Shown here in pieces: positions 10,838 through 43,177 of a stretch of 64,000 nucleotides of DNA (the stretch's first letter is position 1; each line of letters starts with the position of its first letter). Under the pieces are notes generated by a model that was given only the letters and a program-made list of their open reading frames with translations, had not been told where the DNA came from and did no database searches. Source of the stretch: Pristiophorus japonicus (lineage: Eukaryota); NCBI RefSeq assembly GCF_044704955.1, contig NC_091999.1, forward strand, positions 50,468,001 through 50,532,000, read 5' to 3'. The translations under genes and the position numbers were made by a program.

Positions 10838-11850
10838 AGTCACACAATACAAGGTGTACTAAAACAAAATAATGTGTCGGTAGACAATACAAGGTGTACT
10901 CACACAATATAAGCACTACTCACACAATACAAGGTGAAATCACACAATACAATGTATCCTCACAAAATACATGGTGTACTGACACAACAGAAGATGCATA
11001 AACTGACAATGCAAGTTGCAGTCACACATTACAATGGATTCTCACACAATACATGATGTACTCACACAATAGAAGCTGTACTCACACAATAGATAATATA
11101 TTCACACAATACAAGATGTACTCGCACAATATAAGATGTGCTAACACAATACAATGTCTACTTATACAATACAATGTGTACTCACCTGCTTTAAAGTGTA
11201 CTGCCACAATACAATATATATTCACACAATACAAGATGTACTCACACAATACAAGGTGTACTCACACAATACAAGATGTACTCTCACAATACAAGATGTA
11301 CTCGTTCAATAAAATGTGTACTCACACAATACAATGTGTACTCAAATATTCCAATTTATTCTCACACAATAAAACGTGAACTGGCAGATTACGGGATGTA
11401 CTCACACAATACAAGGTGTATTCACATAATGCAAAGTGTAATCACACAATACAAGCTGTACACTAACAATACAAGGGTAATCACATTACAAGTTGTAATC
11501 ACACAATACAAGGTGTAATCACACAATACAAGGTCTATTCACAATACAAGATGTAATCACACAATTCAAGGTGTATTCACAATACAAGGTGTAATCACAC
11601 AATACAAGGTGTAATCACACAATACAAGATGTATTCACACGATACAAGGTTTACTCACATGATACAAGGCATACGCACAAAATGCGAGGTGTACTCACAA
11701 AGTGCAAAGTGCTCACAAAATACAAAATGTACTCACGAAATACAAGGTTTACTCACACAGTACAACGTGTACGAACACAATTCAAGATGTACTCATGCAA
11801 CTCTGATTGTCCTCGCAAAATACAAGGTGTGTACACACAATACAATGTGT
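10838..11850. repeat. 20-bp minisatellite (ACTCACACAATACAAGGTGT)n, left part
   Basis: The tandem unit is directly visible, and the array resumes after the CR1 at ~15230. Confidence 0.9.
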
Positions 11851-14800
11851 AGAAACATAGAAACCAGAGAAAATAGGTGCAGGAGCAGCCCATTCGGAAC
11901 TTCGAGACTGCACCACCATTCAATATGATCAGGGCTGATAATGCAATTTCAGTACCCCATTACTGCCTTCTCTCCATACCCACTGATCCCTTTAGCCGTA
12001 ATGGCCAAATCTAACTCCCTTTTGAATATATCCAACGAACTGGTCTCAAAAGCTTTCTGTGGTAGAGAATTCCATAGGTTCACGATATTCTGGGTGAAAA
12101 AGCTTCTCCTCATCACGGTCCTATATGGCTTACCCCTTTTCATTAGACTGTGACACCTGGTTCTGGACTTCCCCAACATCGGGAACAAAGTTCGTGCATC
12201 CGACCTGACCAATCTCGTCAGAATTTTATATACTTCGATGACATTCCCTCTCATTCTCCTAAATTCCAGTGAATATAAGCCAATTGATCCAACCTTTCTT
12301 CATATGTCAGTGCTGCCATCCCGGGAATCAGTCCGGTTAACCTTCGCTTCACACCCTCAAAAGCAAGAAAGTCCTTCCTCAGATTAGGAGACAAAACTGC
12401 ACACAATACTCAGGGTGTGGTCTCACCAAGGCCCTGTACAACTGCAGCAAGACCGTCCTGCTCCCATACTCAAATCCTCATGCTATGAAGGCCAACATGC
12501 CATTTGTTTTCTTTACTGTCTGCTGTACATGCCTGCCTATTTTAATGACTGAGGTACCATGATGCCCAGGTTTCGTTGCACCTCCCCTTTTACAAATATT
12601 TCACGATTCAGATAATAATTTGCCTTCCTATGTTTGCCACCAAAGTGGATAAGCTCACACTTCTCCATATTTTACTCAATCTGCCATGCATTTTTCCACT
12701 CACTTATCCGGCGAATTCAACCTGCAGCCTCTTAGTATCCTCCTCACAGCTCACACTGCCACCCAGCTTAGTGTTATCTGCAAAGTTGGAGATATTACCT
12801 TCAATTCCTTCGTCTAAATCATTAATATATATTGTAAATAGTTGGGGTCCCAGCACTGAAACTTGCGGTATCCCACTACCCCTCAAAATTAAACCCTTTG
12901 TCTTTCTCTACTGAATTCTAAACTTCTTCCAGTCCTCAGGTTTGCTACTTTTTCTGGCCAATTTATGTGCCTCTTCCTTGGATTTAACAATATCCACAAT
13001 TCCCCGTGTTAACCACGGCTGAGCCTTCATCCCCGTTTTATTTTAATGCCAGACAGGGATGTACAATTGTTGTAGTTCATCCATGTGATCTTTAAATGTC
13101 TGCCATTGCCTATCTACCATCAACCCTTTAAGTATCATTCGCCACTCTATCCTAGCCAATTCATGTCTCATACCATCGAACTTACCTTTCTTTAAGTTCA
13201 GGACCCTAGACTCTGGATTAACTGTGACATTATCCTTCTTAATGAAGAATTATACCATATTATGGTCACTCTTCCCCTCGCATGACAAGATTGCTAATTA
13301 ATCCTTCCTCATTACACAAGACCCAGTCTAGGATGGACTGCTCTTTAGTTGATTCATCGACATATTGGTATAGAAAACCATCCCAAATACACTCCAGGAA
13401 ATCCTCCTCCACAGTACTGCTACCAGTTTGGTTACCCAGTCCATATGTAGATTTAAGTCATCAATGATAACTGCTGTACCTGTATTGCACGCATCCCTAA
13501 TTTCCTGTTTCTTGCCATCCTAACGCTCACTACTACTGTTTGGTGGTCTGTACATAATTACCGAAAACATTTTCTGACCTTTGGTGTTTCGCAGCTCTAT
13601 CCATATAGATTCCACATCACTCAAGGTAATGTCCTGCCTTACTATTGTGTTAATCTCCTCTTTAATCAGTAACGCTACCCCACCTGCTTTTCCTTTCTGT
13701 CTATCCTTCCTGAATATTGAATACCAATGGATGTTGTGTTCCCAGCCCTGGTTACCCTGGAGCCATGTCTCCGAAATTCCCAATTACATTATATCCGTTA
13801 AAAGCAATCTGCGCTATTAATTCATCCACCTTATTATGAATGCTCCTCGCATTGAGACTCAAAGCCTTCAGGCTTGTTTTTTTAAAACTCTTTGTCCTTT
13901 AGAATTATATTTTAATATGTCGCTTTTTGATTTCTCTGCCCTCCACTCTTACTTTTCTCCTTCCTATCTTTTACTTCTGCCGCCTTTTTACTTCCCTCTG
14001 CCTCCCTAAATAGATCCCCATCCCCCTGCCATATTCGGTTAAACCCTCGTCAACAGCACTAGCAAACACACCACCGAGGACCTCGGTCCCGGTCCTGCCC
14101 AGGTGCAGACCATCCGGTTTGTACTGGTCCCATCTCCCACAGAACCAGTTCCAATGTCCCAGGAATTTGAATACCTCCCCCTTGCCCCAGTCCTCAAGCC
14201 ACGTATTCATTTGAACTATCCTGCTGTTCCAACTCTGAATAGCACGTGGCACTGATTGCAATCCTGAGATTCTACCTTTGAGCCCCGACTTTTAAACTTA
14301 ACTCCTAGCTCCCTAAATTCAGCTTGTAGAATGTCATCCAGTTTTTTACCTGAATTGTTGGTACCTATATGCACCACGATAGTTGGCTGTTCATCCTTCC
14401 CCTCCACAATGCCCTGCACCCGCTCCAAGACACCCTTGACCCTTGCACCAGGGAGGCAACATACCACTCTGGAGTCTCGTTTGCGGCCGCAGAAACGCCT
14501 ATCTCTCCCACTTATAATGGAATCTCCTCTCACTATATACCTTCCACTCTTTTTCCAGTTCACCTGCGCAGCACAGTTACCCCTGCTGCCATGAACTTGG
14601 CTGCTGCTCCCTTTCCCTGATGAGCCACCATCCTCAACAGTATCCAAAACTGTATATCTGCCCTACCTTCCGTCCCCTGCTCTTCCTGATGGTCACCCAT
14701 TCCCTATCTGTCTGTGTCATCTTTACCTGCTGTGTGACCAACTCACTAAACATGCTATCCAAGACATCCTCAGCATCGCGGATGCTCCAGAGTGAATCCA

Positions 14801-15225
14801 TGCACAGCTCCAGTGCCTCAATGTGACCTGACAGGAGCTGTAGCTCGACACACTTCACGCACACATAGTAGCCAGTGTCCCTGACTTCCCACATACCACA
14901 GGAGGAGCAGGACACGGCTCTGGGCTCTCCTGCCATGACTTAACCTTTAGATTAACATAATTTGGCAACAATGCCAAAGGTTTCCTACTGATGAGAAAAG
15001 AAAAAGATAAAGAAAAAATGCTTACCAATCAACCAGCCAAAAACTTACCCGCTTGGCTGTGACATTACCCTTCGATTTCTTTTTACTTCTATTTTGCTTT
15101 TTGATTTTTGACGCTACACCAGCTGTTCCTGCGACTGCTCTTCCTGACGATCTGCCGCAGAACTTTTATCCGCCTCGATCCTCCCATTCCCTCTAGCTCC
15201 TCCAACTGATGCTCCTCCCGATCAG
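11851..15225 (-). mobile_element. near full-length CR1 LINE (5'UTR, ORF1 zinc finger + SGNH esterase, ORF2) with an internal deletion near 12880-12905
   Basis: ORF1 shows CSSCGMWE..CVKC and GDSIISG..VCCLPGARV..VVHIGTN. The endonuclease shows GISETWL..YRPPN and the RT shows GIPQVSVLGP..FADNTK. An (AACATAGA) tail is at 11851. Confidence 0.9.
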
Positions 15226-15227
15226 AG

Positions 15228-15815
15228 AGCAAGGTTTACTCACATAATACATGTTGTACTTATACAATACAAGCTGAAATTACGCAATACAATCTATTCT
15301 CACACAATACAAGGTGTACATACACATTACAAGGTTTACGCACACAACACCAAGGTGTACTCACATAATAAAAGGTGTACACATACAGTAAAAGGGGTGC
15401 TCATACAATGCAAGGAGTACACATACAACAAAAGCTTTACTTTCACAATACAAGATGTACTTACACGATAAAACGTGTGCTCATATCATAAAAGTTATAC
15501 TCACTCGATATAAAATGTAAACTCACACCATAATATCAATACTCACACTATATAAGCTGTATTCATACAACAAAGTCAGTACGCACACAATACAAGGTGT
15601 GCTCACACAATAAAAGCTTTACTTATAAATACATGGTGTACTCCCACAATACAAGATGTAGTCACGCAACACAAGCTGTACTCATGCAACACAAGTTCTA
15701 CTCACACAATATATCGTGACTTCACACAATACAAAGTGTACCCACACAAAACAACATATACGGACAAATGTTAATCTGTACTCACACAACACATTGCATT
15801 CTCACCCGATACAAA
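15228..15815. repeat. 20-bp minisatellite, right part (more diverged)
   Basis: Same cacacaatacaaggtgtact unit as 10838-11850. Confidence 0.85.
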
Positions 15816-16863
15816 GTATCATCATTGGCAGTGCGTCGAAACGAGGATGACTTGCTTCCACGCCAAAAAGAAGGATGAGTTCACAGATGTTTCAATGAAG
15901 AACCTAATATTCCAGGTTCCAAACTACATCCTGACGGGTGGAAGATGCTTGTGCATGAATTTTTTTAACGTGTGGTGGCCGTTACACACCAGCCGCCACA
16001 CGGGCTTGACAGAGCTAGGTCTTATTCCAGTGGCAAGGGTTATCCTAGATGTGCTCTGTTGCACGGACCTAGTGTGCACACATATCACTGTGTGGTCTGG
16101 CCCGCGCTGCCCAATGGCACCGAACTCACGCCTCTGTAAGCTACAAGGCTACGGACTCAGAGCTGGAAAGTGGGATTAGGCTGGATAGCTCTCTATCAGT
16201 CTGCGCAAACACGATGGGCCTAAATGGCCTCCTTCCTTGCTGTAAATTTCTATGGTTATATAATGAGAAATAATTAACAGTTTCGGGGGTCGATAACCAG
16301 GTGTTTAAAGGCCATTCATTTCTCTCTTTCCATATCGCTGTTAGTTAAAGGAACACAGATTGATTTCCCCTCATTATGCATCTTTAGTTGTGAAACAAAA
16401 ATCCTTCCTGTTAATAGAGAACCACATTCTGCACTGGGGGAGACGGCGGGTAGCTTCAGCCTGTAAAATTCTCCTCCTCTTGTTCAAATCCCGCCAACAC
16501 CTCGCCACTCCCTATCTCTGTAACCTCCTCCAGCCCACCAACCCTCTTAATGAAGGAAAACATTTTCAGTGTCAGACGGCTCGGTAGCCGGAGGACACCG
16601 ATTTAACATGATTGGCAAATGAACCAGATGCCACAAGAGCGAAAAACATTCAGTAGCGAAATGTTATGGCCTGGAACGCACTGCCTGTAAGGGTGGTGGA
16701 GGCAGATTCACTCTTTACGTGCAAAAGAGATAAATATTTGAGTTGCAAAGATTTGCAGGGTTATGAGGCAGAGCAGTGGAGTCGACTAATTATACAGCTT
16801 AGGATAAGCAAGAGAGTAAAGAATGTTCCAGAGAAACTAGAACTGTCTGTAGAGAATTTATAT

Positions 16864-17160
16864 CTTGGGCAGGCAGCTCAGTCGGTTGGAATGCACATCC
16901 TGGGCAGGCAGCTCAGTCCCATGGAATGCACATCCTGGGCAGGCAGCTCAGTCCCATGGAATGTACATCCTGGGCAGGGAAGCTCAATCCCACGGAATGC
17001 ACATCCTGGGCAGGCAGCTCAGTCCCATGGAATGCACATCCTGGGCAGGCAGCTCAGTCCCATGGAATGTACATCCTGGGCAGGCAGCACAGTCCCATGG
17101 AATGTACATCCTGGTCAGGCAGCACAGTCACATGGAATACACATACTGGGCCATGTGGGA
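16864..17160. repeat. 35-bp minisatellite (CCTGGGCAGGCAGCTCAGTCCCATGGAATGCACAT), ~8.5 copies
   Basis: Unit starts are at 16864, 16899, 16934, 16969 and onward. Confidence 0.9.
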
Positions 17161-17169
17161 ACATCTGGA

Positions 17170-19555
17170 TGACCACGTTGCGGGAAGTGTCGCCAGCTCC
17201 CTAATTGCCTGTTTGATGCCCTCCCCAACATCACTACTACTGTCTGGATGTCGGTACACAACTGCCACTAACGTGTATTGCCCTTTGGTGTTCTGCAGCT
17301 CTACCCATATAGATTCCTTATCATAGGGGTGCATTTTGAGCACCGGGTTTCGGAGCTTGAGCAGTTGCTAGCGTCAATGCAGTCTATCCGCGGGGCTGAG
17401 AGCTTCGAGAATAACGTATTTCAGGAGGTAGTCACCCAGCAGCTTAAAATTGTGCAGGCATAGAGGGAATGGAAGATCGTCAGACAGACAAGGAGGAACT
17501 GGCATGTAGGACAGGAATCGCCTGACTCATTAACCGCTTTTCAGTTCTGGTTAATGAGGAGCATGATGGTTGCTCTGGGGAGTGAAGCCAGTGCCAAGTC
17601 CATGGAACCATGGGTGGCTCAGCTGTACAGAAGGGAAGGAAGAAGAGTGGAAGAGCAATAGTGGTAGGTCATTTGATACATGGGGAATAGACAGACATAG
17701 AAACATAGAAAATAGGTGCAGGACTAGGCCATTTGGCCCTTCTAGCCTGTACCGCCATTCAATGAGTTCATGGCTGAACATGCAACTTCAGTACCCCATT
17801 CCTGCTTTCTCGCCATACCCCTTGATCCCCCTAGTAATAAGGACGTTTGGAGGCTGCAGACGTGACTGCAGGATAGTTATTGCCTGCCTGGTTCCAGGGT
17901 CAAGGTTTGTCACTGATAGGGTGCAGGACATTGTGAGGGAACGGGGGGGAGGGGGGTGAATAGCAGAAGTCGTGGTCTATATTGTCAGCAATGAGAAGAA
18001 TGACGTCCTTCAGGCAGTTTTAAGGGAGCTGGAAAGGAGACTAAAAAACAGGATATCAAATGTAGTAATCTCCAGATTACTCCCAGTACCACGTGCTAGT
18101 GAGTACAGAAATAGGAGGATCGAGCAGGTGAATATGTGGCTTGAGACGATGCAGGAGGGAAGACTTTAAATTTCTGTGGTATTGCGACTGTTTCTGGGGG
18201 CGGTGGGAACTGGACAAGCCAGTCGGGTTGCACCTGAACAAAGCTGGGACATAGATCCTCTACAAGCTGGGAGAGCCTCAGCTCGTTGGTGGGACAATTT
18301 TTGGATAAAATGCTGAGGGATAGGATAAATCTTCATTTGGGAAGACACGGATTAATCAAGGACAGTCAGCATGGATTTGTTAAGGGAAAGCCGGGTCTGT
18401 CTACCGATTGACTCTCCTATATAGCCCCTCAAAAAATGTAATGAGGGCAGTGCATTTGAATATGTGTATATGAATTCTAGCAGCGATTTTGATAAAGTCC
18501 CACAAGGCAGACTGGTCACAAAAGTATAAGCAATTGGGATACGAGGCAAAGTGGCAAGTTGGATCCAAAATTGGCTCAGAGTCAGGAAGCAAAGGTTAAT
18601 GGTTGATGGGTGTTTTTGAGACTGGAAGGCTGTCTCCAGTGGGGAATCCATAGGGCTCACTACTAGGTCCCTTTTTTATCAATAATTTGGACTTCAATCT
18701 ATAGGGTATGATTAGGAAGTATGCAGATGACACACAAATTGCCGTTGTGTTTGATAATGAAGAAGAAAGTTATAGACTGCAGGAAGATGTCAATGGACTG
18801 ATCAGGTGGGCAGAATAGTAGCAAGTGGACTTCAATCCGCGGAAGTGTGAGGTCTTGCATTTGGGTGGGCTAACAAGGCAAGGGAATACACAATGAATCG
18901 TAGGATACTGAGAAGTGTAAATGAATAAAGAGACCTAGGAGTGCATATCCACAGACCCATGAAGGTTTCAGGACAGGTAGACATTATAAATACATTAAGA
19001 GGATAACTAGAGAAAGAATGGGGCCTATTAGAGACCACAAAGGAAATCTGTGTGTGGAAGCAGAAGATGTGAATATAATTCTTAATAAATACCCTGCATT
19101 TGTTTTCACAAAAGAGAGGGGCGATGCAGATTTTGCAATGAGGGATGAGTGTGAAATATTGGACGAGGTAAACATAGTTGGAGAAGAAGTATTAAGGGAC
19201 TTAGCAGCTTTGAAAGTGGATAAATCCCCAGGCCCAGATGAAATGTATTTCAGGCTGTTAAGCGAAGCAAAAGAGGAAATAGCAGAGGCTCTGACCATCA
19301 TTTTCCAATCCACACTGGCTACAGGTGTGGTGCCAGAGGACTGAAGGACCTCTGATGTTTAACCTTTGTTTAAAAAGGGAGACAAGGATAGATCGATTTA
19401 TTAAAGGCCAGTCAGCCTAACCTCAGTGGTGGGATTTTTTTTTGGAAAAATCCTGAATGACAGGATAAATCTTTATTTGGAAAGACATGGATTAATCAGG
19501 AACAGTCCGCACGGATTTGTTCAGGGAAGGTCATATCTGACTAACTTGATTGAAT
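17170..19555 (+). mobile_element. scrambled CR1 mosaic: mostly + strand ORF1/ORF2 pieces, with short - strand pieces at ~17170-17325 and ~17695-17840
   Basis: It contains ORF1-like EHRVSELEQLL and SRLLPVPRASEYRNRRI, and ORF2 DKSPGPDEM and HGFVQGRS. The HGF region occurs twice (~18300-18410 and ~19445-19555). Confidence 0.75.
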
Positions 19556-20812
19556 CTGTCCCCTCTTCCAGGTCATCTATGCATATTGTAAACAATTGTG
19601 GTCCCAGCACCGATCCCTGTGGCACACCACTAACCACCGGTTTCCAACCCGAAAAGGACCCATTTATCCCGACTCTCTGCTTTATGTTAGCCAGCCAATT
19701 CTCAATCCATGCTAATACATTTCCTCTGACTCCACTTACCTTTATCTTCTGCAGTAACCTTTTGTGTGGCACCTTATCGAATGCCTTTTGGAAATCTAAA
19801 TGCACCACATTCTTCGGTATTCACCATGCTCATTATATCCTCAAAGAATTCTAGTAAATTAGTTAAACTTGATTTCCCCTTCATGAATCCATGTTGCGTC
19901 TGCTTTATTGCACTATTCCTATCTAGATGTCCCGCTATTCCTTCCTTAATGAGAGCTTCAAGCATTTTCCCCACTACAGATGTTAAACTAACCGGCGTAT
20001 AGTTACTTGCCTTTTGTCTGCCCCCTTTGTTAAACAGAGGCGTTACATTAGCTGCTTTCCAATCCGCTGGACCTCCCCAGAGTCCAGAGAATTTTGATAG
20101 ATTATAACGAATGCATCTGCTATAACTTCTGCCATCTCTTTTAATACCCTGGGATGCATTTCATCAGGACCAGGGGACCTGTCTACCTTGAGTCCCATTA
20201 GCCTATCCAGCACTACCCCCGTTGTGATAGTGATTATCTCAAGGTCCTCCCTTCTCACATTCCCGTGACCAGCAATTTCTGCAATGGTTTTTGTGTCTTC
20301 CATTGTGAAGACCGAAGCAAAATAATTGTTTAGGGTCTCAGCCATTTCCACATTTCCCAGTATTAAATCCCCCTTCTCATCTTCTGAGGGACCAACATTT
20401 ACTTTAGTCACTCTTTTCCGTTTTATATATCGGTAAAAGCTTTTACTATCTGTTTTTATGTGTTGCGCAAATTTACTTTTGTAATCTATCTTTCCATTCT
20501 TTATTGTTCTCTTAATCATTCTTTGCTGTCGATTAAAATTTTCCCAATCTTCTAGTTTCCCACTAACATTGGCCACCTTATACGCATTGGTTTTTAATTT
20601 GATACTCTCCTTTATTTCCTTGGTTATCCACGGCTGGTTATCCCTTCTCTAACCGCCCTTCTTTTTCACTGGAATATATTTTTGTTGAGCACTATGAAAT
20701 AGCTCCTTAAACGTCCTCCACTGTTCCTCAATTGTGCCACCGTTTAGTCTGCGTTTCCAGTCTACTTTAGACAACTCTGCCATCATCCCACTGTAGTCCC
20801 CTTTGTTTAAGC
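19556..20812 (-). mobile_element. CR1 ORF2 fragment, same subfamily as the Tx1-interrupted CR1 at 63563-64000
   Basis: Translation gives RSPGPDEMHPRVLKE...[12 protein letters not shown]...[10 protein letters not shown]. Positions 19556-19735 closely match 63818-64000. Confidence 0.9.
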
Positions 20813-21294
20813 GACTGTAATATAAATAGAGACAGGGTCTCGTGTAATGTAAACAGAGACAGGGTCTAGTGCAATGTAAGTAGGGACAGGGTCTAGTGTA
20901 ATCTCAGCAGAGACAGGGTCTAGTGCAGTAATACATTTTAAATCTCTGGCTTGTGGTTACTGTCCGTCCTACCAGTGGTAAAGTTTTCTAACTATTTACT
21001 TGATTAAAACTCCTCATAATTTTGATCGCCACTATTAAATCTGCCTTAACATTCTCGGATATAAGGAGCACCGTCCCAGTTTCCAGCTGTTCTACTGATG
21101 CACCTCATGAACATCCAGATGAGGATTCGCTAAGATTTGATCCCATTTTACAACAGTGCCAGAATATCATCCCAGGCAAGATAAGAGCATTATCCCCAGG
21201 AATTAAACCGATTGTGTAAGACTCGTCTCAGGCAATGAACTTTGGACACTCTGAACTAAATGACAACATCTAAAAAATTAAGCTGTGACGTGCT

Positions 21295-21740
21295 AAAGCC
21301 CCGGTACAATGGGATCACTCTCACCTCTGAGTGAGAAGGCTGTGGGTTCTCAACCCCTCTTCACAGACTGAGCACATAATCTCGGCTGGCACTCCCGGTA
21401 CCAGTACCGAAGGAGAAGGGGAGGGGGGGCTATATTGACGGTGGAGCAGTCTTTCGGATGAGACGTTACATCTGCTGAGTCTTCACTCACAGTTGGATGT
21501 AAGAGATTGAGTGGCACAATTTTAAATAGCAGGGGAGTTCACCCCGAAGTCCATTACACATACTTATCCATTAACCAGCATCGCTAAAGAACAGATTCTG
21601 TGGTTATTATCACATTATGTTTGTGGGAGCTTTCTGTGTGCAATTTGACTCCACGTTTCCTGCATTACAAAAGTGACTACACTTCAAACGTACTTCATTA
21701 TAAAGCACTTTTGGACATTCTGAGGACGTGAAAGACGTGA
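21295..21740 (+). mobile_element. tRNA-headed SINE with a Deu-like core (shark SacSINE1-like)
   Basis: A B-box-like head (gggttctcaacccc) precedes the core tttgtgggagctttctgtgtgcaattt...gtgactacacttcaaacgtacttcatt. Confidence 0.6.
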
Positions 21741-22587
21741 AAGTTATTTCTAAACGTCAACATTTAAAATACACGTTGCAATGGGTGACTCCTCTGTTCG
21801 CTGTTTTAACTTGTTTATTTTAAGTGGCTGGAATCTTACGCTAAATGGACATCCAGTGAATTACTGATCTGTTCAGCGAGGTTCCATTGACATTGGTAGC
21901 AGAATTTTCAGAATTGAATTATTAATTTTAATATGTTCCCTTTGATATAAATCACATCTCTTCTAATTGAACAAACCAAAAACCGATGTCACAGCTGGAG
22001 ATATTTCCATTTCTTTGTACCAACTACCAATATTCATAAAATAAACCCGTGCTGTGAGTTAAAACTAATCAGTAAATGACTTTGTGGATCTGCTTTTGCT
22101 GCCATGAACACTTCATGGAAACCTGTGAGGTGTTTATGTAAATAAACGCAGAAATAGAAGTCCCAGATTAGAATAGTGAACGACAGAATAGAAATAAACA
22201 GAGAAAGAAACGCTAATGTCTCAACGGATTCCAGCAACAATTGATGTTTGGGATATTTATTTTCAGTTATTGGTGAACAAATCAACGATGTTATCCGCGG
22301 CCAGAATAGGGAAAGATTCTAGTCACCGTACATAGTCACAGCTCAAATGTATTCGTGGCATTTCTCTGTATCCCCTCCCTCTCTGCCTCTCTCTACTATC
22401 CCCACCTTTTGCCTTGCCTCTAAAGAATGCGTCATTATTTTTACTTCACAATAAGAAGTCAATGTCAAACAAAAATATTCTCTAAGGTCTATTTCCAGGC
22501 CTCAAACCAAATTGGTGGGTGTGCGGAGAGGCAGCTTTATAATAAAATATATCATGTGAACTCAATGATCTTGGGTGTTTGATGTGA

Positions 22588-22925
22588 CTCTGTAGCGGGA
22601 ACTTTACTCTGCATCTAACTACGTGCTGTACCTGCCCTGCGAGTGTTTAATGGGACGGTTTCGAGGGAGCTTTTCTCTGCATAGACCAGTGATGTACCTG
22701 CTCTGGAAGAGTTTGATGGGACGGTGTAGAGGGGGCTTTACTCTATAGCTTACCCGTGCTGTACCTGCCCTGGGGGCGTTTGATATGACGGTGTAGAGGG
22801 AGCTTTATTGTTTTTCGAATCGTGCTGTACCTGAGCTGGGAGTGTTTGATGGGACAGCATCGAGGGAGCTTTTCTTTGCATAGACCCGCGCTGTCCCTGC
22901 CCTGGGAATGTTTGATGGCACAGTG
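22588..22925. repeat. ~65-bp tandem repeat (GGGAGCTTTACTCTGTATCTAACCCGTGCTGTACCTGCCCTGGGAGTGTTTGATGGGACAGTGTAGA-like), ~5 copies
   Basis: gtgctgtacctgccctg...gtttgatgggac recurs. A decayed array of the same unit lies at ~35715-36240. Confidence 0.8.
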
Positions 22926-23159
22926 TGACATCACTATCGCAGAAAATTGTTTTTGTCAGTGCAACTTCCTGTATATTGCATTTCGTGTTTACCTCTTTGA
23001 CATCATCACGTCAGCAACACGTAAACAATGGGTGACCTCATTGTTTACAACAAAGCAGCGTCATGAACGTGATTTGGTCGCCATAGCTTCATCGGTGCGA
23101 CGTCTGACCCTCAGCCAAATGGATTGCTCGATTTGACCTATATAGACACATCTATACCC

Positions 23160-24060
23160 CAGGGTCTAGTGCAGTAATAACCGAGACATGTCCAAGTATA
23201 ACATAGACAGAGAGAGGATATAGTGTAATATCTACAATGACAGGGACCAGTGTAAAATATAAACACACAGCGTCTAGTGTAATATAAACAGAGACAGGGC
23301 CTAGTGTAATATAAAGAGAGACAGTGTCTAGTGTAATATAGAAAATAAAGGGGCTAGTGTAATATAAACAGAGACGATATCTAGTGTAATATAAAAAGTG
23401 CAGGGTCTAGTGTAATATAAACAGAGACAGTGTCTAGTGTAATGTAAAAAATACAGAGTCTAGTATAATATAAACAGAGACAGGGCCTAGTGTAATATAA
23501 ATAGAGACAGGGTCGAGTGTAATATAAATAGAGACAGCGTCTAGTGTAATATAACCAGAGACAGGACCAATCTATTATAAAGAGACAGGGGATAGTATAA
23601 TATAAATAGTGACAGGGTCCAACATAATATAACAAAGGATAACGTGCTCTAATACTAACTAATACATGAGATATTGTAGTAGAAACATTGACATTTTCGA
23701 GTGCAATATAAACTGAGACATATCGAGTGCAATATAAAGAGAGACATGAACTAGTGAAATATTGACAGAAACATGGTGTACGGTCATATAAACAGAGACA
23801 GCGTCTAGTTCAGTAGTAACTGAGAATGGGTCTAATGTATTATAACGGAGGGTCCAGTACTGTGATAACTGATACAGAGCCGAGCATAATATAAGCAGAG
23901 ACACGGTCTAGTGCAGTGTAACTGAGACAGTATCCACAGTAATAAAATTGATCCCGAGACTTGTGCAGTAATAACTGAGACAGGGCCTTGTGCAATCCGA
24001 AAAGAGAGATGATCGAGTGTAGTTATAATTAAACAGGGTCCAGAGTAATTTAAACATATA
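23160..24060 (-). repeat. 27-bp satellite in reverse orientation (AGGGTCTAGTGTAATATAAACAGAGAC)n
   Basis: It is the reverse complement of the unit at 24215-26830. A short piece in the same orientation is at 20813-20932. Confidence 0.85.
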
Positions 24061-24214
24061 GAATGCCTGGAATAATTTGATGGTAACATTCCAGCCATGC
24101 GAATCTTCATGTCTGTCTGACTGTCTATCTGTCTGTCGTTCGGTCGGTCGGTCCATTCGTCTGTCCGTCCATCCGTCGATTCGTACTTCTATCCATCTAT
24201 CTGTACTTCTATCT

Positions 24215-26830
24215 AATATTACACTAGAACCTGGCTCTCTTAAGACCCTGTCCCTGTTAATATTACACGGGACCCTGTCTCTGTTTATATTACCCGTGTC
24301 CCTGTCTCTGTTTATATTGTACCAGACCCTGTCTCTGTTTATATTGCACTAGACTCTGTCCCAGTTTATATTACACTAGACACTGTCTCTGTTTATATTA
24401 GTCTCGACCCTGTCTCTGTTTATATTATAATGGACCCTGTCGGTGTTTATATTATTCTGGACCCTGTCCCAGTTTATATTGCACTAGACCCTGCCTCTGT
24501 TTATATTACAGTAGACTCTGTCTCTGTTTTTATTACACTAGACCCTGTCTCTGTTTATATTACACTAGACCCTGTCCCAGTTTATATTACACTAGACACT
24601 GTCTCTGTTTATATTGTACTAGACCCTGTCTCTGTTTATATTACACTAGACCCTGCCTCTGTTTACATTACATTAGACCCACTCCCAATTCATATTACAC
24701 TAGAGACTGTCTCTATTTATATTAGTCTAGACCCTGTCTCTGTTTATATTCGACTAGACCCTGTCTCTGTTTATATTACACTGGACCATGTTTCTGTTTA
24801 TATTAAACTAGACCCTGTCTCTGCTTATATTACACTAGACCCTGTCTCTGTTTATATTGTTCCAGACACTATCCCTGTTTATATTACACTAGACTCTGTC
24901 TCTGTTTATATTACACTAGACCCTGTCTCTGTTTATATTGTACTAGACACTGTCTCTGTTTATATTACACTAGACCCTGCCTCTGTTTACATTACACTAG
25001 ACCCTCTTCCAGTTCATATTATACTGGACCCTGTCTCTGTTTATATTAAACTAGCTCCTGTCTCTGTTTATTTTACACTAGACCCTATCTCTCTTCATAT
25101 TACACTAGACCCTGTCTCCGTTTATATTAAACTAGACCCTGTCTCTGTTTATATTACACTAGACACTGTCTGTGTCTATATTCTTCTTAACACTATCCCT
25201 GTTTATATTGGACTCGACCCTGTCTCTGTTTATATTAAACTAGACGCTGCCTCTGTTTTTGTTACACTAGACCATGTCTCTGTTTATATTACACCAGACA
25301 CTGCCACTGTTTATATTCTTTCTGACACTATCCCTGTTTATATTACACTAGACCCTGTCTCTGTTTGTATTACACTAGACTCTGTCTCTGTTTATATTAC
25401 ACTAGACCCTGTCTTTGTTTATATTCTTCCAGACACTATCCCTGTTTATATTACACTAGACCCTGTCTCTGTTTATAATACACTAGACCCTGCCTCTGTT
25501 TATATTACACTGGACACTGTCTCTGTCTATATTCTTCTTAACACTATCCCTGTTTATATTGGACTCAACCCTGTCTCTGTTTATATTAAACTAGACCCTG
25601 TCTCTGTTTATATTACACTAGACCATGTCTCTGTTTATATTACACCAGACACTGCCTCTGTTTATATTCTTTCTGACACTATCCCTGTTTATGTTATACT
25701 AGACCCTGTCTCTGTTTGTATTACACTAGACCCTGTCTCTGTTATATTACACTAGACCATGTCTCTGTTTATATTGCACCAGACACTGCCTCTGTTATAT
25801 TCTTTCTGACACTATCCCTGTTTATATTACACTAGACCCTGTCTCTGTTTGTATTACACTAGACCCTGTCTCTGTTTATATTACACTAGACCCTGTCTCT
25901 GTTTTTATTCTTCCAGGCACTATCCCTGTTTATATTACACTTGACCTTGTCTCTGTTTATAATACACTCGACCCTGTCTCTGTTTATACTACACTAGACC
26001 CTGTCTCTGTTTATTTTACTCCAGACCCTGTATCTATTTATATTACACTGGACCCGGTCTCTGTTCATATCACACAAGACCCTGTCTCTGTTTATATTCT
26101 TCCAGACACTATCCCTGTTTATATTACACTAGACGCTGTCTCTGTTTATAATACACTAGACCCTGTCTCTGTTTATAATATACTAGACACTGTCTCTGTT
26201 TATACTACATTAGACCCTGTCTCTGTTTATATTACACCAGACACTGCCTCTGTTTATATTCTTTCTGACACTATCCCTGTTTATATTACACTCGACCCTG
26301 TCTCTGTTTATAATACACTAGACCCTGTCTCTGTTTATACTACACTAGACCCGGTCTCTGTTTATTTTACTCTAGACCCTGTCTCTATTTATATTACACT
26401 GGACCCTGTCTCTGTTAATATCACACAAGACCCTGTCTCTGTTTATATTCTTCCAGACACTATCCCTGTTTATATTACACTAGACCCTGTCTCTGTTTAT
26501 AATATACTAGACACTGTCTCTGTTTATACTACATTAGAATCTGTCTCTGTTTATATTACACTAGACCCTCTCTCTGTTTATATTACACTAGACCATGTCT
26601 CTGTTTATATTACACCAGACACTATCTTTGTTTATAATCTTTCTGACACTATCCTTGTTTATATTTCACTAGACCCTATCTTTGTTTGTATTACACTAGA
26701 CTCTGTCTCTGTTTATATTCCAATAGACACTGTCTCAGTTTATATCACACGAGACCCTGTCTCTTCTTATAATACGCCAGGCATTGTCACTGTTTATATT
26801 ATCTTCGACACTGTCTCTCTTTTTATTACA
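24215..26830 (+). repeat. 27-bp satellite (GACCCTGTCTCTGTTTATATTACACTA)n
   Basis: The unit is directly visible and produces the 9-aa DPVSVYITL repeat in the ORF track. Confidence 0.95.
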
Positions 26831-27639
26831 CCAGATCATCTTTCCTTTTCAAATATATATTGATTTCCCTATTTGAAAGTTATAATTAAATTTGCTACCA
26901 TCACCCTTCCAGACACTACATTCCAGGTTATTACAACTCGCTGCATAAAAAATCTCCTTATCTCCCGTCTGGATTTATTTTTTCATTCATCTTAATCTTT
27001 GTGTTCTGGTTACCGATAGACCTGCCGATAGAATCCCCACCTTACTATCAACTCAATGAAACCCCTTCACAATTTTGAAAACATCTGTTAATCTCCCCTA
27101 AGCATTCCCTGCTATAATAAGAATAAACCCATCCTCTCTCGTCTCCAGAAAACTGAACTCCCTCATGCCTTGCACCAATCTCCTCTGCATCCTCGACAAG
27201 AGCCCGACAATCTTCTTAAAATTTGGATTGAAAAAAATTCAATCTTTATTTGCCCTTCAGATTATTTCTAAGGATACATGCTCCCTTCAAATTTGACTGA
27301 CTGAGAAGCATTAATTATATTGTTTTACTTGTTTTGACAAAATGGACGGTGACTGAAATGCTCAGCAACATCCGTCTCCACATGACTCATGTATCAATAT
27401 GATCATTGTCGCCACCTGCTGATAAACGACATCTACTGCAAGCTCCAGAGCTTACTTCAAACATGATTCATAACACCCACAACAATAACTTGCTTGAACG
27501 TTTACCCAGAGGATTTTTTTTAGAACAAACCACAAGAGGTGCAGATGATCAGGAAGTATCAAGGGCGGAATTAGCAAAATTATTATTGCAAATTCACCTT
27601 CAGCTCATCATACAGAGCGGTCAGATTAGATAAACTTCC

Positions 27640-31141: not shown

Positions 31142-31187
31142 ATGAGGTCGGCGATTGCTTTCGTTTTGTTGCTGGCTTTACTTTCCC
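31142..31187 (+). pseudogene. IGHV: IgM VH leader exon
   Basis: It encodes MRSAIAFVLLLALLS(R), followed by a phase-1 gtgagt donor. Confidence 0.92.
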
Positions 31188-31315: not shown

Positions 31316-31635
31316 GTGTCCAGTCGGATGTGGTGTTGACTCAGCCCGAGGCAAAGACCAGGATTTCCTGAGGCTCCCTGAGACTGACCTGTAAACCAGC
31401 GGGTTCGATCTTAGCGGCTATGGTATGAACTGGGTCCGCCAGGTTCCCGGACAGGGGCTGGATTGGCTGGTTTACTACTACACTCCAGCGAGCAACAATA
31501 ACGTCCCAGGGATTGAGAGCCGATTTACTGCATCCAAAGACACTTCAAACAACATCTTCACGTTGGACATGAAGAACATGAGGAGCGAAGACACCGCCAT
31601 CTATTACTGTGCAAGGAAGGACTATGGGAGTGGGT
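31316..31635 (+). pseudogene. IGHV: IgM VH exon pre-joined to D1 (V-D1), pseudogene
   Basis: After the ttttacag acceptor it reads [57 protein letters not shown], then 19 extra nt ending AGTGGGT. There is a stop at 31369-71 and a -1 frameshift at ~31395. Confidence 0.93.
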
Positions 31636-31673
31636 CACGGTGCAATACAGAGCGAGCTCTCCATACAAAAACC
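31636..31673 (+). other. recombination signal sequence, 22-bp spacer (D1 3' type)
   Basis: CACGGTG (31636-42) + 22 nt + ACAAAAACC (31665-73). Confidence 0.92.
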
Positions 31674-31764
31674 CCAGACAGGGAGTTTGCTCAAACCTGC
31701 GACCATTACCACGCCAGGAGCGTCGAAGGAACTGAGGCTTAAATAAAAATAATTAGAAATAAGT

Positions 31765-31796
<32 letters not shown>

Positions 31797-32002
31797 AATG
31801 TATAACAGTTTTCTTCTTTATTACTATTGATTGCCATGTTGAACATGCACAGATGCTTCAGAAGTATTCCAATCATTTTTGTAAATATAATGAACGGTAC
31901 AAAATGAAATATCTCGCTGATTCACTCTTACGATAGTCGGAATCGGGTTTTTAGAGCTGGGTGGAATTTAATCTCTGTATTTTACAGTTAACAGTCCGCC
32001 GG

Positions 32003-32030
32003 AGTATTTGACACAACGTGTCTCACTCTG
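32003..32030 (-). other. recombination signal sequence, 12-bp spacer (D2 5' type), degenerate
   Basis: AGTATTTGA (6/9 to GGTTTTTGT) + 12 nt + CACTCTG (6/7 to CACTGTG). No nonamer is present at the 23-bp position. Confidence 0.7.
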
Positions 32031-32080
32031 TTACGCAATTGGCTACTGGGGACAAGGGACCATGGTGACGGTGACTGCAG
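32031..32080 (+). pseudogene. IGHJ: JH segment (probably D2-J pre-joined)
   Basis: It encodes YAIGYWGQGTMVTVTA, followed by a gtaagg donor at 32081. Confidence 0.93.
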
Positions 32081-35000
32081 GTAAGGAGCATTCACTGATT
32101 CAGTAACACTTGTATTTGTGTCTTTATTTTATATTTCTGTTTATTTTAATAATTATTTCGTTCACTGAAACTTGGGTCCGGTGGATTTTGTTTTGAGATT
32201 TTTTTGCAATTATCAATGTGATTCTGCTGCAAAGTGATTATAAAATTCAACTGTTTCTCCACAGAAAATGTTGCTGATGTGATTTGGTATTTATTTGCTG
32301 ACGAGACTGTGTGTCGAGGTTACTTTAAATACCTTATGATCATTACACTGTTTGACGTTTCTGCAATGTTTAATCTTGGTGACCTCTGATTGCTGGAGTT
32401 TTTCTGATCGAATGCAAACATTGTGTTTGAATGTGTTTAAAAGAACATTGTAGGCACAAAACAGAAAGCTTAGAGGTCAGTAAATAACCTTAAGGTCATT
32501 TAAGTTTTTTCATGAAAATTACATTGTCATCTACTGACCGAATGTTCCCGAATGATCAGATTCAATACGTGAGTTGTAATTAAGAACTGACAAATTAACA
32601 TATTTCCAGCTGGAACACATTTAAATTAACATTATTATAACGTAGTAATATCACCGATTATTATTGAAATACGCTATAATATCAAAATTAATGTATTTAA
32701 CATGATCCGTCCAATCACAATTCTCTGTCAGTATTTTATATTTCTGTTGAATTCAATCTTTCGTTATTTCAGTGTTAGGCGGGTTTGATGATTGTGTAAT
32801 GAGATTTTTTGCAATGATACATTTGATTCTGCTGAAAGGGTTTATAGAATTACGGATCTGCTCCATGAAAGGTTCTGTCGAGGGATTCCGCCCCTCAGCG
32901 ATGTGATTTAGTGTTGATCTGCTGAGGAGAGTTTGTGCCTGTGTTACTCAGAATACCTAGAATTTGTGAAACTGTTTGGCGTTTCTACAATGTTTAATAT
33001 CGGTGACAGCAGCAGGTTTCTGATCGAATCCAAACACGATATGTATTTTGAAACTGTTTGAAAACAGTCGGTAGGCAAAGAACAGGACGGGTTTAGACAT
33101 CAGAAATTATTGAAAGGTATTTTAACATCACAATTATTGAAGTGATAATTATATATTCAACTATTAATCAATGTTGACGATGCTGGTATATTAATATGTG
33201 AAATGTAACTAGTTGCCATCTACATAATTAACTTATTCAGGTTGTAGTTGGATTAAATTACTATTAACCAACCGATTATAATGCAATAATATCTCTGAAT
33301 GTTATTCAAATATGCTATAAGTCCAATGTTCATTTACTTAATATTATTCGCCTTCAAAAATCCTGCTCGACACTGGGCACCATTAAGGCAAGCAGAAACT
33401 TTTAGAGGCTGGATACAGTTATTAATTATGCCTGCAATTATTTCATTAACAACATACTGATTCCACCGCTGTGTTCAGTTTGAGTCGGGAGTTCAATTAC
33501 TTGCTACCTCCTGTTTACACAGATGAATGACTGAGTGCAATTAATTATAACTTAAAGCCGTGTTGCAAATTCCATTTTATCAATTTAATATATCTGCCGG
33601 GGTATGACATTCTCACTGTGTAGCAGAAATTTGTTATTGAATCAATATTGTGTGTTGTTTGATAGAATTATCACTAAGTTAATCTTGAACACTTTGCAAG
33701 AACCAAAGCTGAAAGACAGGCGTCGCTGGCAGTCAAAGAATTGTTCATGTAATTATATTGAAATTCAAGGCAGGTTCCGACTGCGTATGGCTGGAGACAG
33801 CAAATAATCCATTGAAATTCAAGCAGATTAATTTACTTACAAAAGGTTCATCTTATTTTGAATTTAAAACAAAATTCAACTCCCAAAACGCTGCTGTATG
33901 CGGAATAGAACGGTAGACAAAGCACAAATCATATCTGAGAGCTATGTTTAATTCTTATTAATATTAAATTGATGAACAATGTCTCTCCTCCATTTGCTCA
34001 TTCAGTTTCAGTGCCCCAGATGGTCTGAATGAATTGTTATCCTCTAGTTTTACACTGACCATTCTGGAAACTATTTTCAAGAAGTAGCAGAATATATTTA
34101 ATCATTAACTTACGGGCATTTTGTGACTAACTGGAGTATTCAGCCATGAACTCATTGAATGGCGGTGCAGGCGCGAAGGGCCGAATGGCCTACTCCTGCA
34201 GCTATTTTCTATGTCTCTATGAACTTTAAAAGATTGTCTGTGTTATTCAGTAGCGGAGGCTCTGCTACTGACTGCAAACTGCAAGGATGGATTTTAATTA
34301 ATAAAACCATTTTTGGGGTTTAAGATTGAGGAGAATATTTCAGCTCGAGATTCCAGCATTAGTAAACAAGCGGTTTACAGCCCATCGGAGTTGTGACCCC
34401 GGCTGGACAGAGAACTATTTAAATTAGACCACCCCCAAATCCATCATGTGAAATGTTCTCTGCGAATAGACGCAGTTTATGCTACATTAGAAACATGCAG
34501 AGTTTAAAAAGGTGTCGGTCGAGAGCGGGACATTAGTAGAACTGCCTGATTATTGTCAATTATTCAAATTTGATTCCATTTAAGTAAAAATAAGGTATAT
34601 TTCTGAGTAGTTATGTATTAATATGCTGCTTAATATTTTAATATTGATTAATTGTTATGGTAAGTTAAGTAAACCATAATATATCACAAGTTATCAGGCA
34701 GAAAAGGTTTTAGAATTATTAATAATTACTTGTATTTGTATGGCTGAAATTCAAGCACGTTAATTTAATTTCAAAAGTTCCAGGTAGGTATGCTTCTGAG
34801 GAGGAAGGGCCAGACTGGCACTCAGATTATTTTCAATATTCAGCTAACATGAACATTAAATTAGAATGTAACATCAGTGCTAATTCATTAAAACATAAGC
34901 GAGCCCTTACAATTGTGTTGCATACTGGTCAGTATTACAATTATTGCAAAATTTCAAGGGTTGGAGATAATGTTTAATTCATTCATAAATTAATTTAGAA

Positions 35001-38534: not shown

Positions 38535-38833
38535 TAACACCGTCTCCCCCATCGTCTGCGCCCTGCTCTCCTCCTGTGAACAGCCCAGCACCGATGGCTC
38601 CATCACGTAGGGCTGTTTGGTGATGGACGACTCCCCTGACATCATCAGCCTTTTCTGGAAGGAAGATAAAGAGCCGACCACGACTGGATTGAAGACCTAC
38701 CCGTCATTGCTCAAAAAGAATTGAACCAACACCCTGAGCAGCCAATTAACCATCACCGAGTCCGAGGTGGGGAGCAGCACAATCTGCTGCGAAGTTCGAC
38801 GTGGTGGGTCGCTGTGGAACATCACAATATCAG
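38535..38833 (+). pseudogene. IGHM: IgM CH1 exon
   Basis: After the ccag acceptor it reads VTPSP(fs)..[59 protein letters not shown]. Stops are at 38608-10 and 38722-24, with a gt donor at 38834. Confidence 0.92.
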
Positions 38834-38859
38834 GTTAATGATGTGGGATACAGGGCAAA

Positions 38860-39325: not shown

Positions 39326-39645
39326 ACGTCCTGAACGGATCATCGTTCCTCCAATTGTTCTCCTCTTGCTAAGTTCCACTGAACAAATCATCTGCAGCAG
39401 ATATGTAAGCGCCATGTGTTCAATCATCGAATTAAGGCCAAAGTCACTGACCGTGAATTGGCTGAAGAGTGGACAACTCCTGGATTCGGGCTTCATCACC
39501 TCTCCCGCCTTTGAGATGAACGGAAACGTTTTGACGGCCAGTCGTCTGACACTCCCCGACAGGGAATGGTTCACCGGCTCGGTCTGCACCTGCCAGGTCA
39601 CTCATGAAGGGGGCACACAAAGCCGTAACTTCAGCAGATCTTAGG
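39326..39645 (+). pseudogene. IGHM: IgM CH2 exon (5' boundary approximate)
   Basis: It reads VPPIVLLLLSSTEQI..MCSIIE..VNWLKSGQLLDSGFITSP..SRLTLPDREWF..CTCQVTHEG. There is a TAG at 39642-44, a gtaag donor at 39646 and no intact AG acceptor. Confidence 0.88.
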
Positions 39646-39799
39646 GTAAGAGGCACAATCCGGCGAGGTTCCAGACCATTCTGAGCGCTGATCTCAGTCA
39701 GAACTTTGATTGAAATTAGTAGAAAGCAGAGGAATATTCCTAATTCCCAATCATGCAGTTTGTGTATTCTTGTGATAAAATTTTGCCTTGAAACAGCGC

Positions 39800-41617: not shown

Positions 41618-41925
41618 TGGATGTCCCATGCAGCGATTAAAAATCACTCTTCGCCCACCGTCACTGGAACAGGTTTTACTGGAGGCGACGGTGACCTTAA
41701 CGTGCGTCGTGTCTAACGCTCCTTATGGGCTCACCGTGACCTGGACACGAAAAAACGAGTCTTTGAAATCAGAGATTGCCGTCCAACCCGGAGAGGATCC
41801 CAACAGTGTGATCAGCAACTAAAACATCTCGACACAAGACTGGCTGAGTGGGAATAAGTTCTACTGCGTGGTGAGCCATCAGGATATGCCGACTGCTCTC
41901 AGAGATTCCATCCACAAGGGAAAGG
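41618..41925 (+). pseudogene. IGHM: IgM CH3 exon
   Basis: After the ttcgcag acceptor and an early frameshift it reads [62 protein letters not shown] is at 41820-22 and the gtgag donor at 41926. Confidence 0.93.
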
Positions 41926-42817
41926 GTGAGCGGGGAGATTGTTGCAATAAGTACGACACTGCGACAATTTCGATGCGTGTGCAAGGGCCAATTGATTATA
42001 TAAAGTGTTTAATGGCTACTCTGATAATTCAGGTTGGTAATTCCACCAACTCAGCACTCTGGGACATGACATTATGTATTTTAGGGGAAACTGGATAAGT
42101 CCATGAGCGAGAAAGAAATAGAACGGTATATTATTAGGTTTAGATGAAGTGGTCTCGGAGGAGGCTTGTTTGGATCATAAACACCGGCATCGACCAGTTG
42201 GCCAAATCTCCTCGTTCTGTGCATTAAATTCTTTGTCATTTTCCAGTCCAATGCTTCAATATTTCAGAGAGAAAGATTACGTTCCCTCGGATAAGGGATG
42301 GAAAACCAGAGAGGCAACAGAGGGGAAAAGGAAAAGCGTCAAAATTCAACGCGGTGTCCATTTCTCTCACATCTAACCACCGGAAATTGGCTGAATTTAA
42401 ATGAGGAAGGCGAGTTGTGGGCGTTGGTCTCACAGGCCACCAGTGAAAACGGGAGGATTGGAAGCCGAGTGAGGAGGTCGCGGATCCTGGATCCAGGAGG
42501 TAGGTGTAAGGGCAATTACCACCTGGGAGCAGCAATCCCCACCTTGCTGTAACTGCTGAGATTTACACAGTGTTTCAAACCGGACCAACGACTGTTAAAC
42601 ACCAAATGGTGGTTAAAATAGAGGATTCAAGTCTCATTTAAATATATTACTCAAATATAATATTACAACTGGAAGTAGGCGAGTTGAGGTAGGGATTCTA
42701 ATTTTTACCAATTTAACAACCTCCACGCCCAAAACCCGCCCGCTGTATTGGGTTGAAATTCCCCCATTGTCTCTGGAACTATCCAGTTCATTGGCCTTTG
42801 TTGTTACTGTTCTACAG

Positions 42818-43177
42818 CGAAAGATCCGCGGGAACCAGCCGTGTCTGTCCTCCTGCCCTCAGCAGAAGTCTCTGCTCAGAGGTTGGTCAGCCTCACCTGC
42901 TTAGTGAGAGGTTCTCCCCCCGAGAGATCTTCGTCAAATGGACCGTCAATGACAAGCCGGTGGATTCCCGCAACTGCAAGAACACCGAGGTGATGGCGGA
43001 GAACGGTAGCAGCTCCTTCTTCATGTACAGCCTGCTATCCATTGCAGCCGAGGTATGGGCCAGCGACGCCTCTCACACCTGTGTGGTGGGACATGAAGCG
43101 ATCTCCTTGATAATCACCAACAGAACCGTCAATAAATCCAGTGGTAAAGCATTTTCCTTGTTCTGATGGACACCTTC
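42818..43177 (+). pseudogene. IGHM: IgM CH4 exon plus truncated secretory tailpiece
   Basis: It reads [23 protein letters not shown](fs)[40 protein letters not shown], with the internal G|GTAAAG donor at 43143/44. The tail remnant LVLMDTF is then cut by CR1. Confidence 0.93.

What the first reader, a model, noticed from the sequence alone, without database searches (positions are those of the whole stretch)
31608..32080. Germline-joined VD-DJ IgM cluster retaining one 22/12-compatible RSS pair
Seen: CAR is followed by 19 nt ending AGTGGGT, then a 22-spacer RSS. After a single ~390-bp interval a 12-spacer RSS abuts JH directly. Known: unjoined shark IgM clusters are V-23, 12-D1-22, 12-D2-12, 23-J, with three short intervals, and germline-joined clusters occur in cartilaginous fish. 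Inference: V-D1 and D2-J were joined by RAG in the germline, leaving only the D1-D2 step. Very little D2 sequence survives (50 nt from heptamer to donor), so heavy trimming or a hybrid joint is possible.
Basis: partly seen in the sequence, partly recalled or inferred. Interest (0 to 1): 0.72.

Follow-up and report, generated by a model that had tools for sequence, protein, structure and literature searches.

The report
Pre-joined shark antibody pseudogene missing D2
This is a broken copy, one of 26, of a shark antibody gene whose V and first D pieces are already fused in the genome, a known arrangement; the less ordinary part is that its gene family has lost the second D piece, likely through one or a few old mis-joining events, leaving some relatives with a simpler three-piece layout.

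Summary
V is fused to a full 17-nt D1 carrying a 22-spacer signal; a 395-bp interval follows that aligns to D1-D2 of four-segment IgM clusters in this genome; D2's 5' 12-spacer signal then sits on J. Germline VD-DJ is a named class (PMC5192425), and this scan found the same kind on another piece (e1-9845814). Two corrections. First, this copy is dead: V has a stop and a frameshift (V is broken in 26 of 26 copies of this junction), the 12-signal heptamer has lost its third C, and all four C-mu exons are damaged. Second, the J side is not an ordinary D2-J join. J is full length, no D2 bases are recognisable, and the same 12-signal J occurs in 44 of 72 related clusters, 9 of them with V and D still free and V intact. 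None of the 72 has D2 or a 23-signal J. D2 loss is therefore probably older than the V-D1 join; a RAG hybrid joint is my best reading (about 0.5). Intact relatives, not this copy, are where the remaining step could work; untested.

The parts
31142..31187 (+). IgM leader exon, intact, GT donor
31316..31616 (+). VH exon (family B), pseudogene: in-frame TGA at 31369-71 and a 1-bp deletion near 31393; ends CAR
   Evidence: a DNA-run contig covers 31324-31459 with 1 difference and no gap
31617..31618 (+). 2 nt (AA) at the V-D1 junction; GA in sister copy L026, which matches the germline V end, so probably V-derived rather than N-added
   Evidence: origin inferred
31619..31635 (+). D1, full 17 nt, fused to V; V 23-RSS, D1 5' 12-RSS and the ~470-bp interval are gone
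   Evidence: comparison with free D of L031-L035, L048
31636..31673 (+). D1 3' RSS, 22-nt spacer, intact
31674..32002 (.). former D1-D2 interval, about 100 bp longer than in the four-segment family, with a TA microsatellite at 31765-31804
32003..32030 (-). 12-spacer RSS homologous to the D2 5' RSS; heptamer damaged (C at 32028)
32031..32032 (+). 2 nt (TT) between heptamer and J; match no D2 start seen in this genome
32033..32080 (+). full-length 48-nt JH, donor GT at 32081
   Evidence: same length as 23-RSS J segments in 7 of 7 family A clusters tabulated
38535..38835 (+). C-mu1, frameshift near the start and two stops
39342..39653 (+). C-mu2, stop near the end of the matched stretch
41625..41933 (+). 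C-mu3, internal stop
42811..43148 (+). C-mu4, frameshift; no transmembrane exon found in the window

Best explanation
The window holds a dead, duplicated IgM heavy-chain cluster in which V is fused to D1 and J carries D2's 5' 12-spacer signal with D2 itself gone, likely the result of two successive germline RAG events. Inferred order: (1) in an ancestor of this IgM family, D2, the D2-J interval and J's 23-signal were deleted and D2's upstream signal end was joined to J's coding end, most likely as a deletional hybrid joint between the head-to-tail 12 and 23 signals, giving V23 / 12-D-22 / 12-J clusters; (2) such clusters were then joined further in the germline several times, twice V-to-D and several times D-to-J; (3) one V-D product lost its reading frame and was copied to 26 places. 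Intact relatives would need only one or two joins; this copy would make nothing.
For: Shown: interval homology to D1-D2 up to the last base of the heptamer. Full-length J directly after the heptamer in 12 clusters, after 2 nt in 32. The 12-RSS J in 9 clusters with free V and D and intact V; C-mu1-4 and TM open in 2 of 3 checked. No D2 or 23-RSS J in 72 of 72 family B loci; all 71 family B J-pattern hits inspected. The other germline junction classes involving a D keep at least 5 D-like bases. The 26 copies form one clade on V (100/100), and all 44 12-RSS-J clusters lie inside one 51-row clade on J plus intron (99/95). The second V-D class is joined over a 4-nt overlap of V end and D start. The 12-RSS-J junction is bridged by contigs of two samples from two studies. 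Precedent for RSS-to-downstream-J deletional hybrid joints: PMC5339680 passage; for germline RAG joining: PMC2193156.
Against: No four-segment family B cluster was found, so the lost D2 is unknown and D2 remnants cannot be strictly excluded; the comparator family A is only about 70% identical in V. AU tests reject the 44 as a clade by themselves (p 0.0003; expected if the 7 nested V-DJ clusters descend from them), and reject both the 48-nt class (p 0.02) and the 50-nt class (p 3e-5) as clades, so a single origin needs later junction change or gene conversion. On the V tree the window's clade is not grouped with the free V-D-J clusters. Tissue of the assembly and runs is not on record, and the DNA runs may be the assembly's own sample. 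Some near-identical copies may be haplotype or assembly duplicates (5 of the 35 VD copies are on small contigs).
Confidence: 0.55

Rival explanations
1. Textbook VD-DJ: D2 was joined to J by an ordinary germline coding join that trimmed D2 back to 0-2 nt and left J whole.
For: VD-DJ is a named germline class (PMC5192425) and a somatic intermediate in nurse shark (PMC2435157). The 2 nt in 32 of 44 clusters could be D2 or N bases.
Against: Needs all 13 nt of a D2 like family A's removed exactly to the heptamer with J untouched, possibly more than once; other germline D joins here keep 5 or more D-like bases.
Confidence: 0.22
2. D2 was lost without RAG, by deletion between the two direct-repeat CACTGTG heptamers of D2 and J; only V-D1 is a RAG join.
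For: Gives exactly the 48-nt class (12 clusters); both heptamers read CACTGTG in family A.
Against: Cannot give the 50-nt class without a later 2-nt insertion, and that class is the more widespread on the J tree; only 7 bp of homology.
Confidence: 0.17
3. The joins are somatic products captured from lymphocyte DNA, or an assembly artefact.
For: Tissue not on record; VD-DJ occurs somatically in sharks.
Against: One junction sits in 26 loci diverged to 94-100% in V with distinct subclades; somatic joins are unique per clone; run contigs reproduce the V lesions and the J junction.
Confidence: 0.03

Closest known systems
Partially germline-joined elasmobranch IgM clusters (VD-J, VD-DJ), PMC5192425; skate and horned shark primary papers recalled, not held
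   Same: Minicluster with V fused to D1, D1 3' 22-RSS and D2 5' 12-RSS kept across one interval, fixed in many copies.
   Different: No D2 coding bases and an untrimmed J; the 12-RSS J is family-wide and also found with free V and D; this copy is a pseudogene.
Nurse shark somatic 2R intermediate VD-DJ (PMC2435157)
   Same: Same map: one interval, D1-D2.
   Different: Here one junction is inherited and amplified; there each clone is unique, with trimming and N/P additions.
Deletional hybrid joints at mouse J-kappa (PMC5339680) and D-JH hybrid joints (PMC2194253)
   Same: An upstream RSS joined to a downstream J exon by deletion between head-to-tail signals (PMC5339680).
   Different: Those are rare somatic by-products; here the product would be fixed in the germline and found a gene family. 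PMC2194253 describes the reciprocal, inversional form.
TCR beta/delta signal layout, V23 / 12-D-23 / 12-J (recalled)
   Same: The 9 three-segment relatives have the same signal order.
   Different: They are IgM by C-mu1-4, tail and TM exons, and the layout is derived from D1-D2 sequence, not TCR sequence.

Membership tests
Elasmobranch IgM minicluster | Leader, VH, JH followed by C-mu1-4 | tested here: met
   all four exons present but damaged
Elasmobranch IgM minicluster | Open reading frames and TM exon (functional gene) | tested here: not met
Germline-joined VD-DJ cluster | V-D1 coding join with both facing signals and interval removed | tested here: met
Germline-joined VD-DJ cluster | Remaining interval is D1-D2 | tested here: met
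Germline-joined VD-DJ cluster | D2-J coding join with D2 bases before J | tested here: inconclusive
   0-2 nt, none assignable to D2; family B D2 unknown
Germline-joined VD-DJ cluster | Present in germline or non-lymphoid DNA | tested here: inconclusive
   26 diverged copies and two samples argue for it; tissue not on record
Germline-joined VD-DJ cluster | Usable 22/12 signal pair | tested here: not met
   heptamer damaged in this copy and 10 of 26; CACTGTG intact in the other 16 and in 9 of 9 of the second VD class
RAG hybrid joint | Intact signal end abutting a coding end of a 12/23 partner | tested here: met
   D2 5' 12-RSS on a full J whose homologues carry a 23-RSS
RAG hybrid joint | RAG dependence, as against 7-bp homology deletion or full trimming | not testable with these tools
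   the three routes give the same 48-nt product

The most novel reading that the evidence does not exclude
A germline RAG hybrid joint, normally a somatic error, removed D2 and founded this shark's largest IgM family, whose intact members rearrange as three-segment V23 / 12-D-22 / 12-J genes with a TCR beta/delta-like signal order, allowing D-skipping V-J joins and short CDR3s, and whose once-more-joined members need a single somatic step.
Probability: 0.3. Interest if true: 0.68.

Novelty: new variant of a known kind. Interest (0 to 1): 0.4.

Why it matters
The window copy itself is a pseudogene of a known class. The family matters more. Lee et al. 2000 (PMC2193156) noted that heavy-chain germline joins were hard to dissect because joined and split genes were too diverged; here 72 related clusters give V-D, D-J and VDJ joins beside close unjoined relatives. 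If the D2-less clusters rearrange, germline RAG activity changed the recombination rules of a working antibody family rather than only freezing a specificity, which is testable by repertoire sequencing.

Tried and rejected
I first took the four-segment clusters for IgW from recalled V motifs; their C exons show IgM, so I dropped that. No database name was obtained for their V. A direct census of 23-RSS J segments was not obtained; the D2-J interval search (14 of 14 candidates, 7 inspected, all family A) and a D2 3' RSS pattern (34 hits: 14 at family A places, one on C23 at 9.66 Mb not inspected, the rest scattered) stood in. The C-mu2 search scored only 40 of 119 candidates, and four C-mu2 places had no V or J in the 9.9 kb fetched upstream (L093-L096), so more clusters may exist. 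No RNA holder was listed. No listed contig showed a somatic join from a VD cluster or a three-segment cluster to the 12-RSS J; contigs drop rare variants and tables were cut, so this says nothing either way. Run X5 is another organism and was not used. Contig depths were not used as copy numbers. The X4 contig over the V-D1 junction has 30 letters on the V side, one short of the tool's bridging rule. Left out of the trees: 5 duplicate loci, 6 other-family V loci, L085, L087, L091, L093-L096, and L109-L110 (fetched later). Harding 1990 and Kokubu 1988 were not held. Searches found no paper on a one-D or hybrid-joint shark IgM family; the library lacks most subscription journals, so this is weak. 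Figure S1 of PMC2435157 (somatic junctions) was not seen and may bear on how often D2 is fully trimmed.

Full report
Observation. The layout is as described: CAR at 31608-31616, 19 nt, a 22-spacer RSS from 31636, 395 bp heptamer to heptamer, a left-facing 12-spacer RSS at 32003-32030, and 50 nt to the donor. Shuffles gave the 22-RSS in 0 of 2000 and a 12-RSS this good in 11 of 2000. The RSS consensus used is recalled. The 12-RSS heptamer has C for G at 32028, which alters the third base of the CAC. The window lies at G000:C23:50468001-50532000.

The copy is a pseudogene. V has an in-frame TGA at 31369 and a 1-bp deletion near 31393. C-mu1 has a frameshift and two stops, C-mu2 and C-mu3 a stop each, C-mu4 a frameshift, and no TM exon was found in the window. 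A DNA-run contig covers both V lesions with no gap, so they are unlikely to be assembly errors.

Census. A DNA search scored 40 of 92 candidates; further searches by V-D interval (36 of 36 scored), V-end pattern (79 hits) and J pattern (73 hits) gave 72 loci of the window's family (B), five of them divergent VDJ genes whose placement is weak. Classes: 26 with the window's V-D junction, V broken in 26 of 26; 9 with a second V-D junction, V intact in 9 of 9; 9 with V23 / 12-D-22 / 12-J, V intact in 9 of 9; 20 V-DJ in four junction groups; 8 VDJ. None has D2 or a 23-RSS J. These are lower bounds, and some may be haplotype duplicates. A second family (A, about 70% V identity) has V23 / 12-D1-22 / 12-D2-12 / 23-J in 5 of 8 loci inspected, plus 2 V-DD-J and 1 V-DDJ; it is IgM by C-mu1-4, secretory tail and TM in 2 of 2 checked.

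The interval is D1-D2. It scores 145-146 against family A D1-D2, against 19 for V-D1 and 28 for D2-J (shuffle maxima 25-28), and aligns through the last heptamer base. So the 12-RSS on J is D2's 5' signal; its odd nonamer is normal for this genome.

V side. The 19 nt are 2 nt plus a full 17-nt D1. Free V ends carry 2-4 nt after CAR, and sister copy L026 has GA, as in the germline V end, so no N addition is required. Both facing signals and about 470 bp are gone, as in a coding join. The second class is joined over a 4-nt overlap. Two V-DJ groups have AC after an untrimmed D ending GT, which fits P nucleotides (inference). RAG action in germ cells is the published explanation for such genes (PMC2193156, passages and section 21; PMC4279169, passages).

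J side. Family A J segments are 48 nt from heptamer to donor in 7 of 7 tabulated. In family B, 12 clusters have a 48-nt J directly on the 12-RSS and 32 have 2 more nt, TA or TT, which match no D2 start seen here. Every other junction class involving a D keeps at least 5 D-like bases. A signal end joined to an untrimmed coding end is what a deletional hybrid joint between head-to-tail signals gives; PMC5339680 (passages) reports this at mouse J-kappa and notes that two successive inversions can mimic it; PMC2194253 (passages) reports the inversional D-JH form. Full trimming of D2 and a 7-bp heptamer deletion remain open. I put hybrid joint at about 0.5-0.55, full trimming 0.22, heptamer deletion 0.17.

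Order of events. The 26 copies are one clade on V (100/100). On J plus intron, all 44 12-RSS-J clusters and 7 V-DJ clusters form one clade (99/95). Against a simple story, AU tests reject the 44 alone, the 48-nt class and the 50-nt class as clades (p 0.0003, 0.02, 3e-5), and the V tree does not group the window's clade with the free clusters. D2 loss before both V-D joins is the economical reading, with one origin plus later junction change or conversion, or with several origins.

Reads. Contigs of sample S1 bridge the heptamer-J junction (31807-32069, 2 differences) but may be the assembly's sample. A 103-nt contig of run X7, another sample and study, bridges it too. One spliced X7 contig joins a family B V to a germline DJ junction with 4 extra nt, out of frame by my count: a weak hint that partly joined family B clusters still recombine. 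It concerns the V-DJ class, not the window's, and the run's kind is not on record.

Function. C-mu1-4 and TM are open in L048 and L032 (three-segment) and L030 (second VD class); L031 showed only C-mu1 in 19.8 kb. Rearrangement of them was not shown.

Known and new. PMC5192425 (passages) lists VD-J and VD-DJ germline clusters and gives two D per functional nurse shark IgM gene; PMC2435157 (passages and section 10) shows VD-DJ and V-D-DJ as somatic intermediates. PMC12227049 (passages), PMC2191167 (no matching passage) and PMC2192082 (reference list) added nothing on this. The skate and horned shark primary papers are recalled only. I found no description of a D2-less, 12-RSS-J IgM family in searches, in a library lacking most subscription journals. 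Verdict: a dead member of a known class, within a family showing a probably unreported variant. Interest 0.4.

Noticed in passing
L048, L054, L055, L031-L035, L052 (C23): Nine three-segment V23 / 12-D-22 / 12-J IgM clusters with intact V; two of three checked have open C-mu1-4 and TM exons.
   Followed up: yes
L027-L030, L036-L040: Second germline V-D class with intact V and intact 22/12 signals; L030 has open C exons. Best test of a one-step IgM.
   Followed up: partly
L044-L051, L057-L069, L078, L079, L086, L088-L090, L109, L110: Twenty V-DJ and eight VDJ germline-joined family B clusters in several independent junction groups.
   Followed up: partly
L070-L076, L092: Second IgM family with a V resembling recalled IgW V motifs but C-mu exons; holds the only four-segment clusters found, also V-DD-J and V-DDJ forms; mostly on small contigs.
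   Followed up: partly
L077, L080, L081, L083, L084, L082: Ig-like V exons with a 23-RSS and no D or J within 2.4 kb, resembling recalled TCR-associated Ig-like V genes; L082 is a joined, out-of-frame VJ of this type.
   Followed up: no
window 43900-64000: GC-rich tandem copies (89-92% alike) of a LINE-like element with endonuclease- and RT-like ORFs, starting just after C-mu4 where the TM exon would be expected further on.
   Followed up: no
L093-L096: Four C-mu2 matches with no V or J in the 9.9 kb fetched upstream; possible orphan constant regions.
   Followed up: partly
window 10840-26835: Minisatellites of 20, 27, 35 and 66 bp, including 96 copies of a 27-mer at 24243-26835.
   Followed up: no
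G000:C23:9661944: One 12-spacer RSS pattern hit on C23 outside the IgM loci.
   Followed up: no
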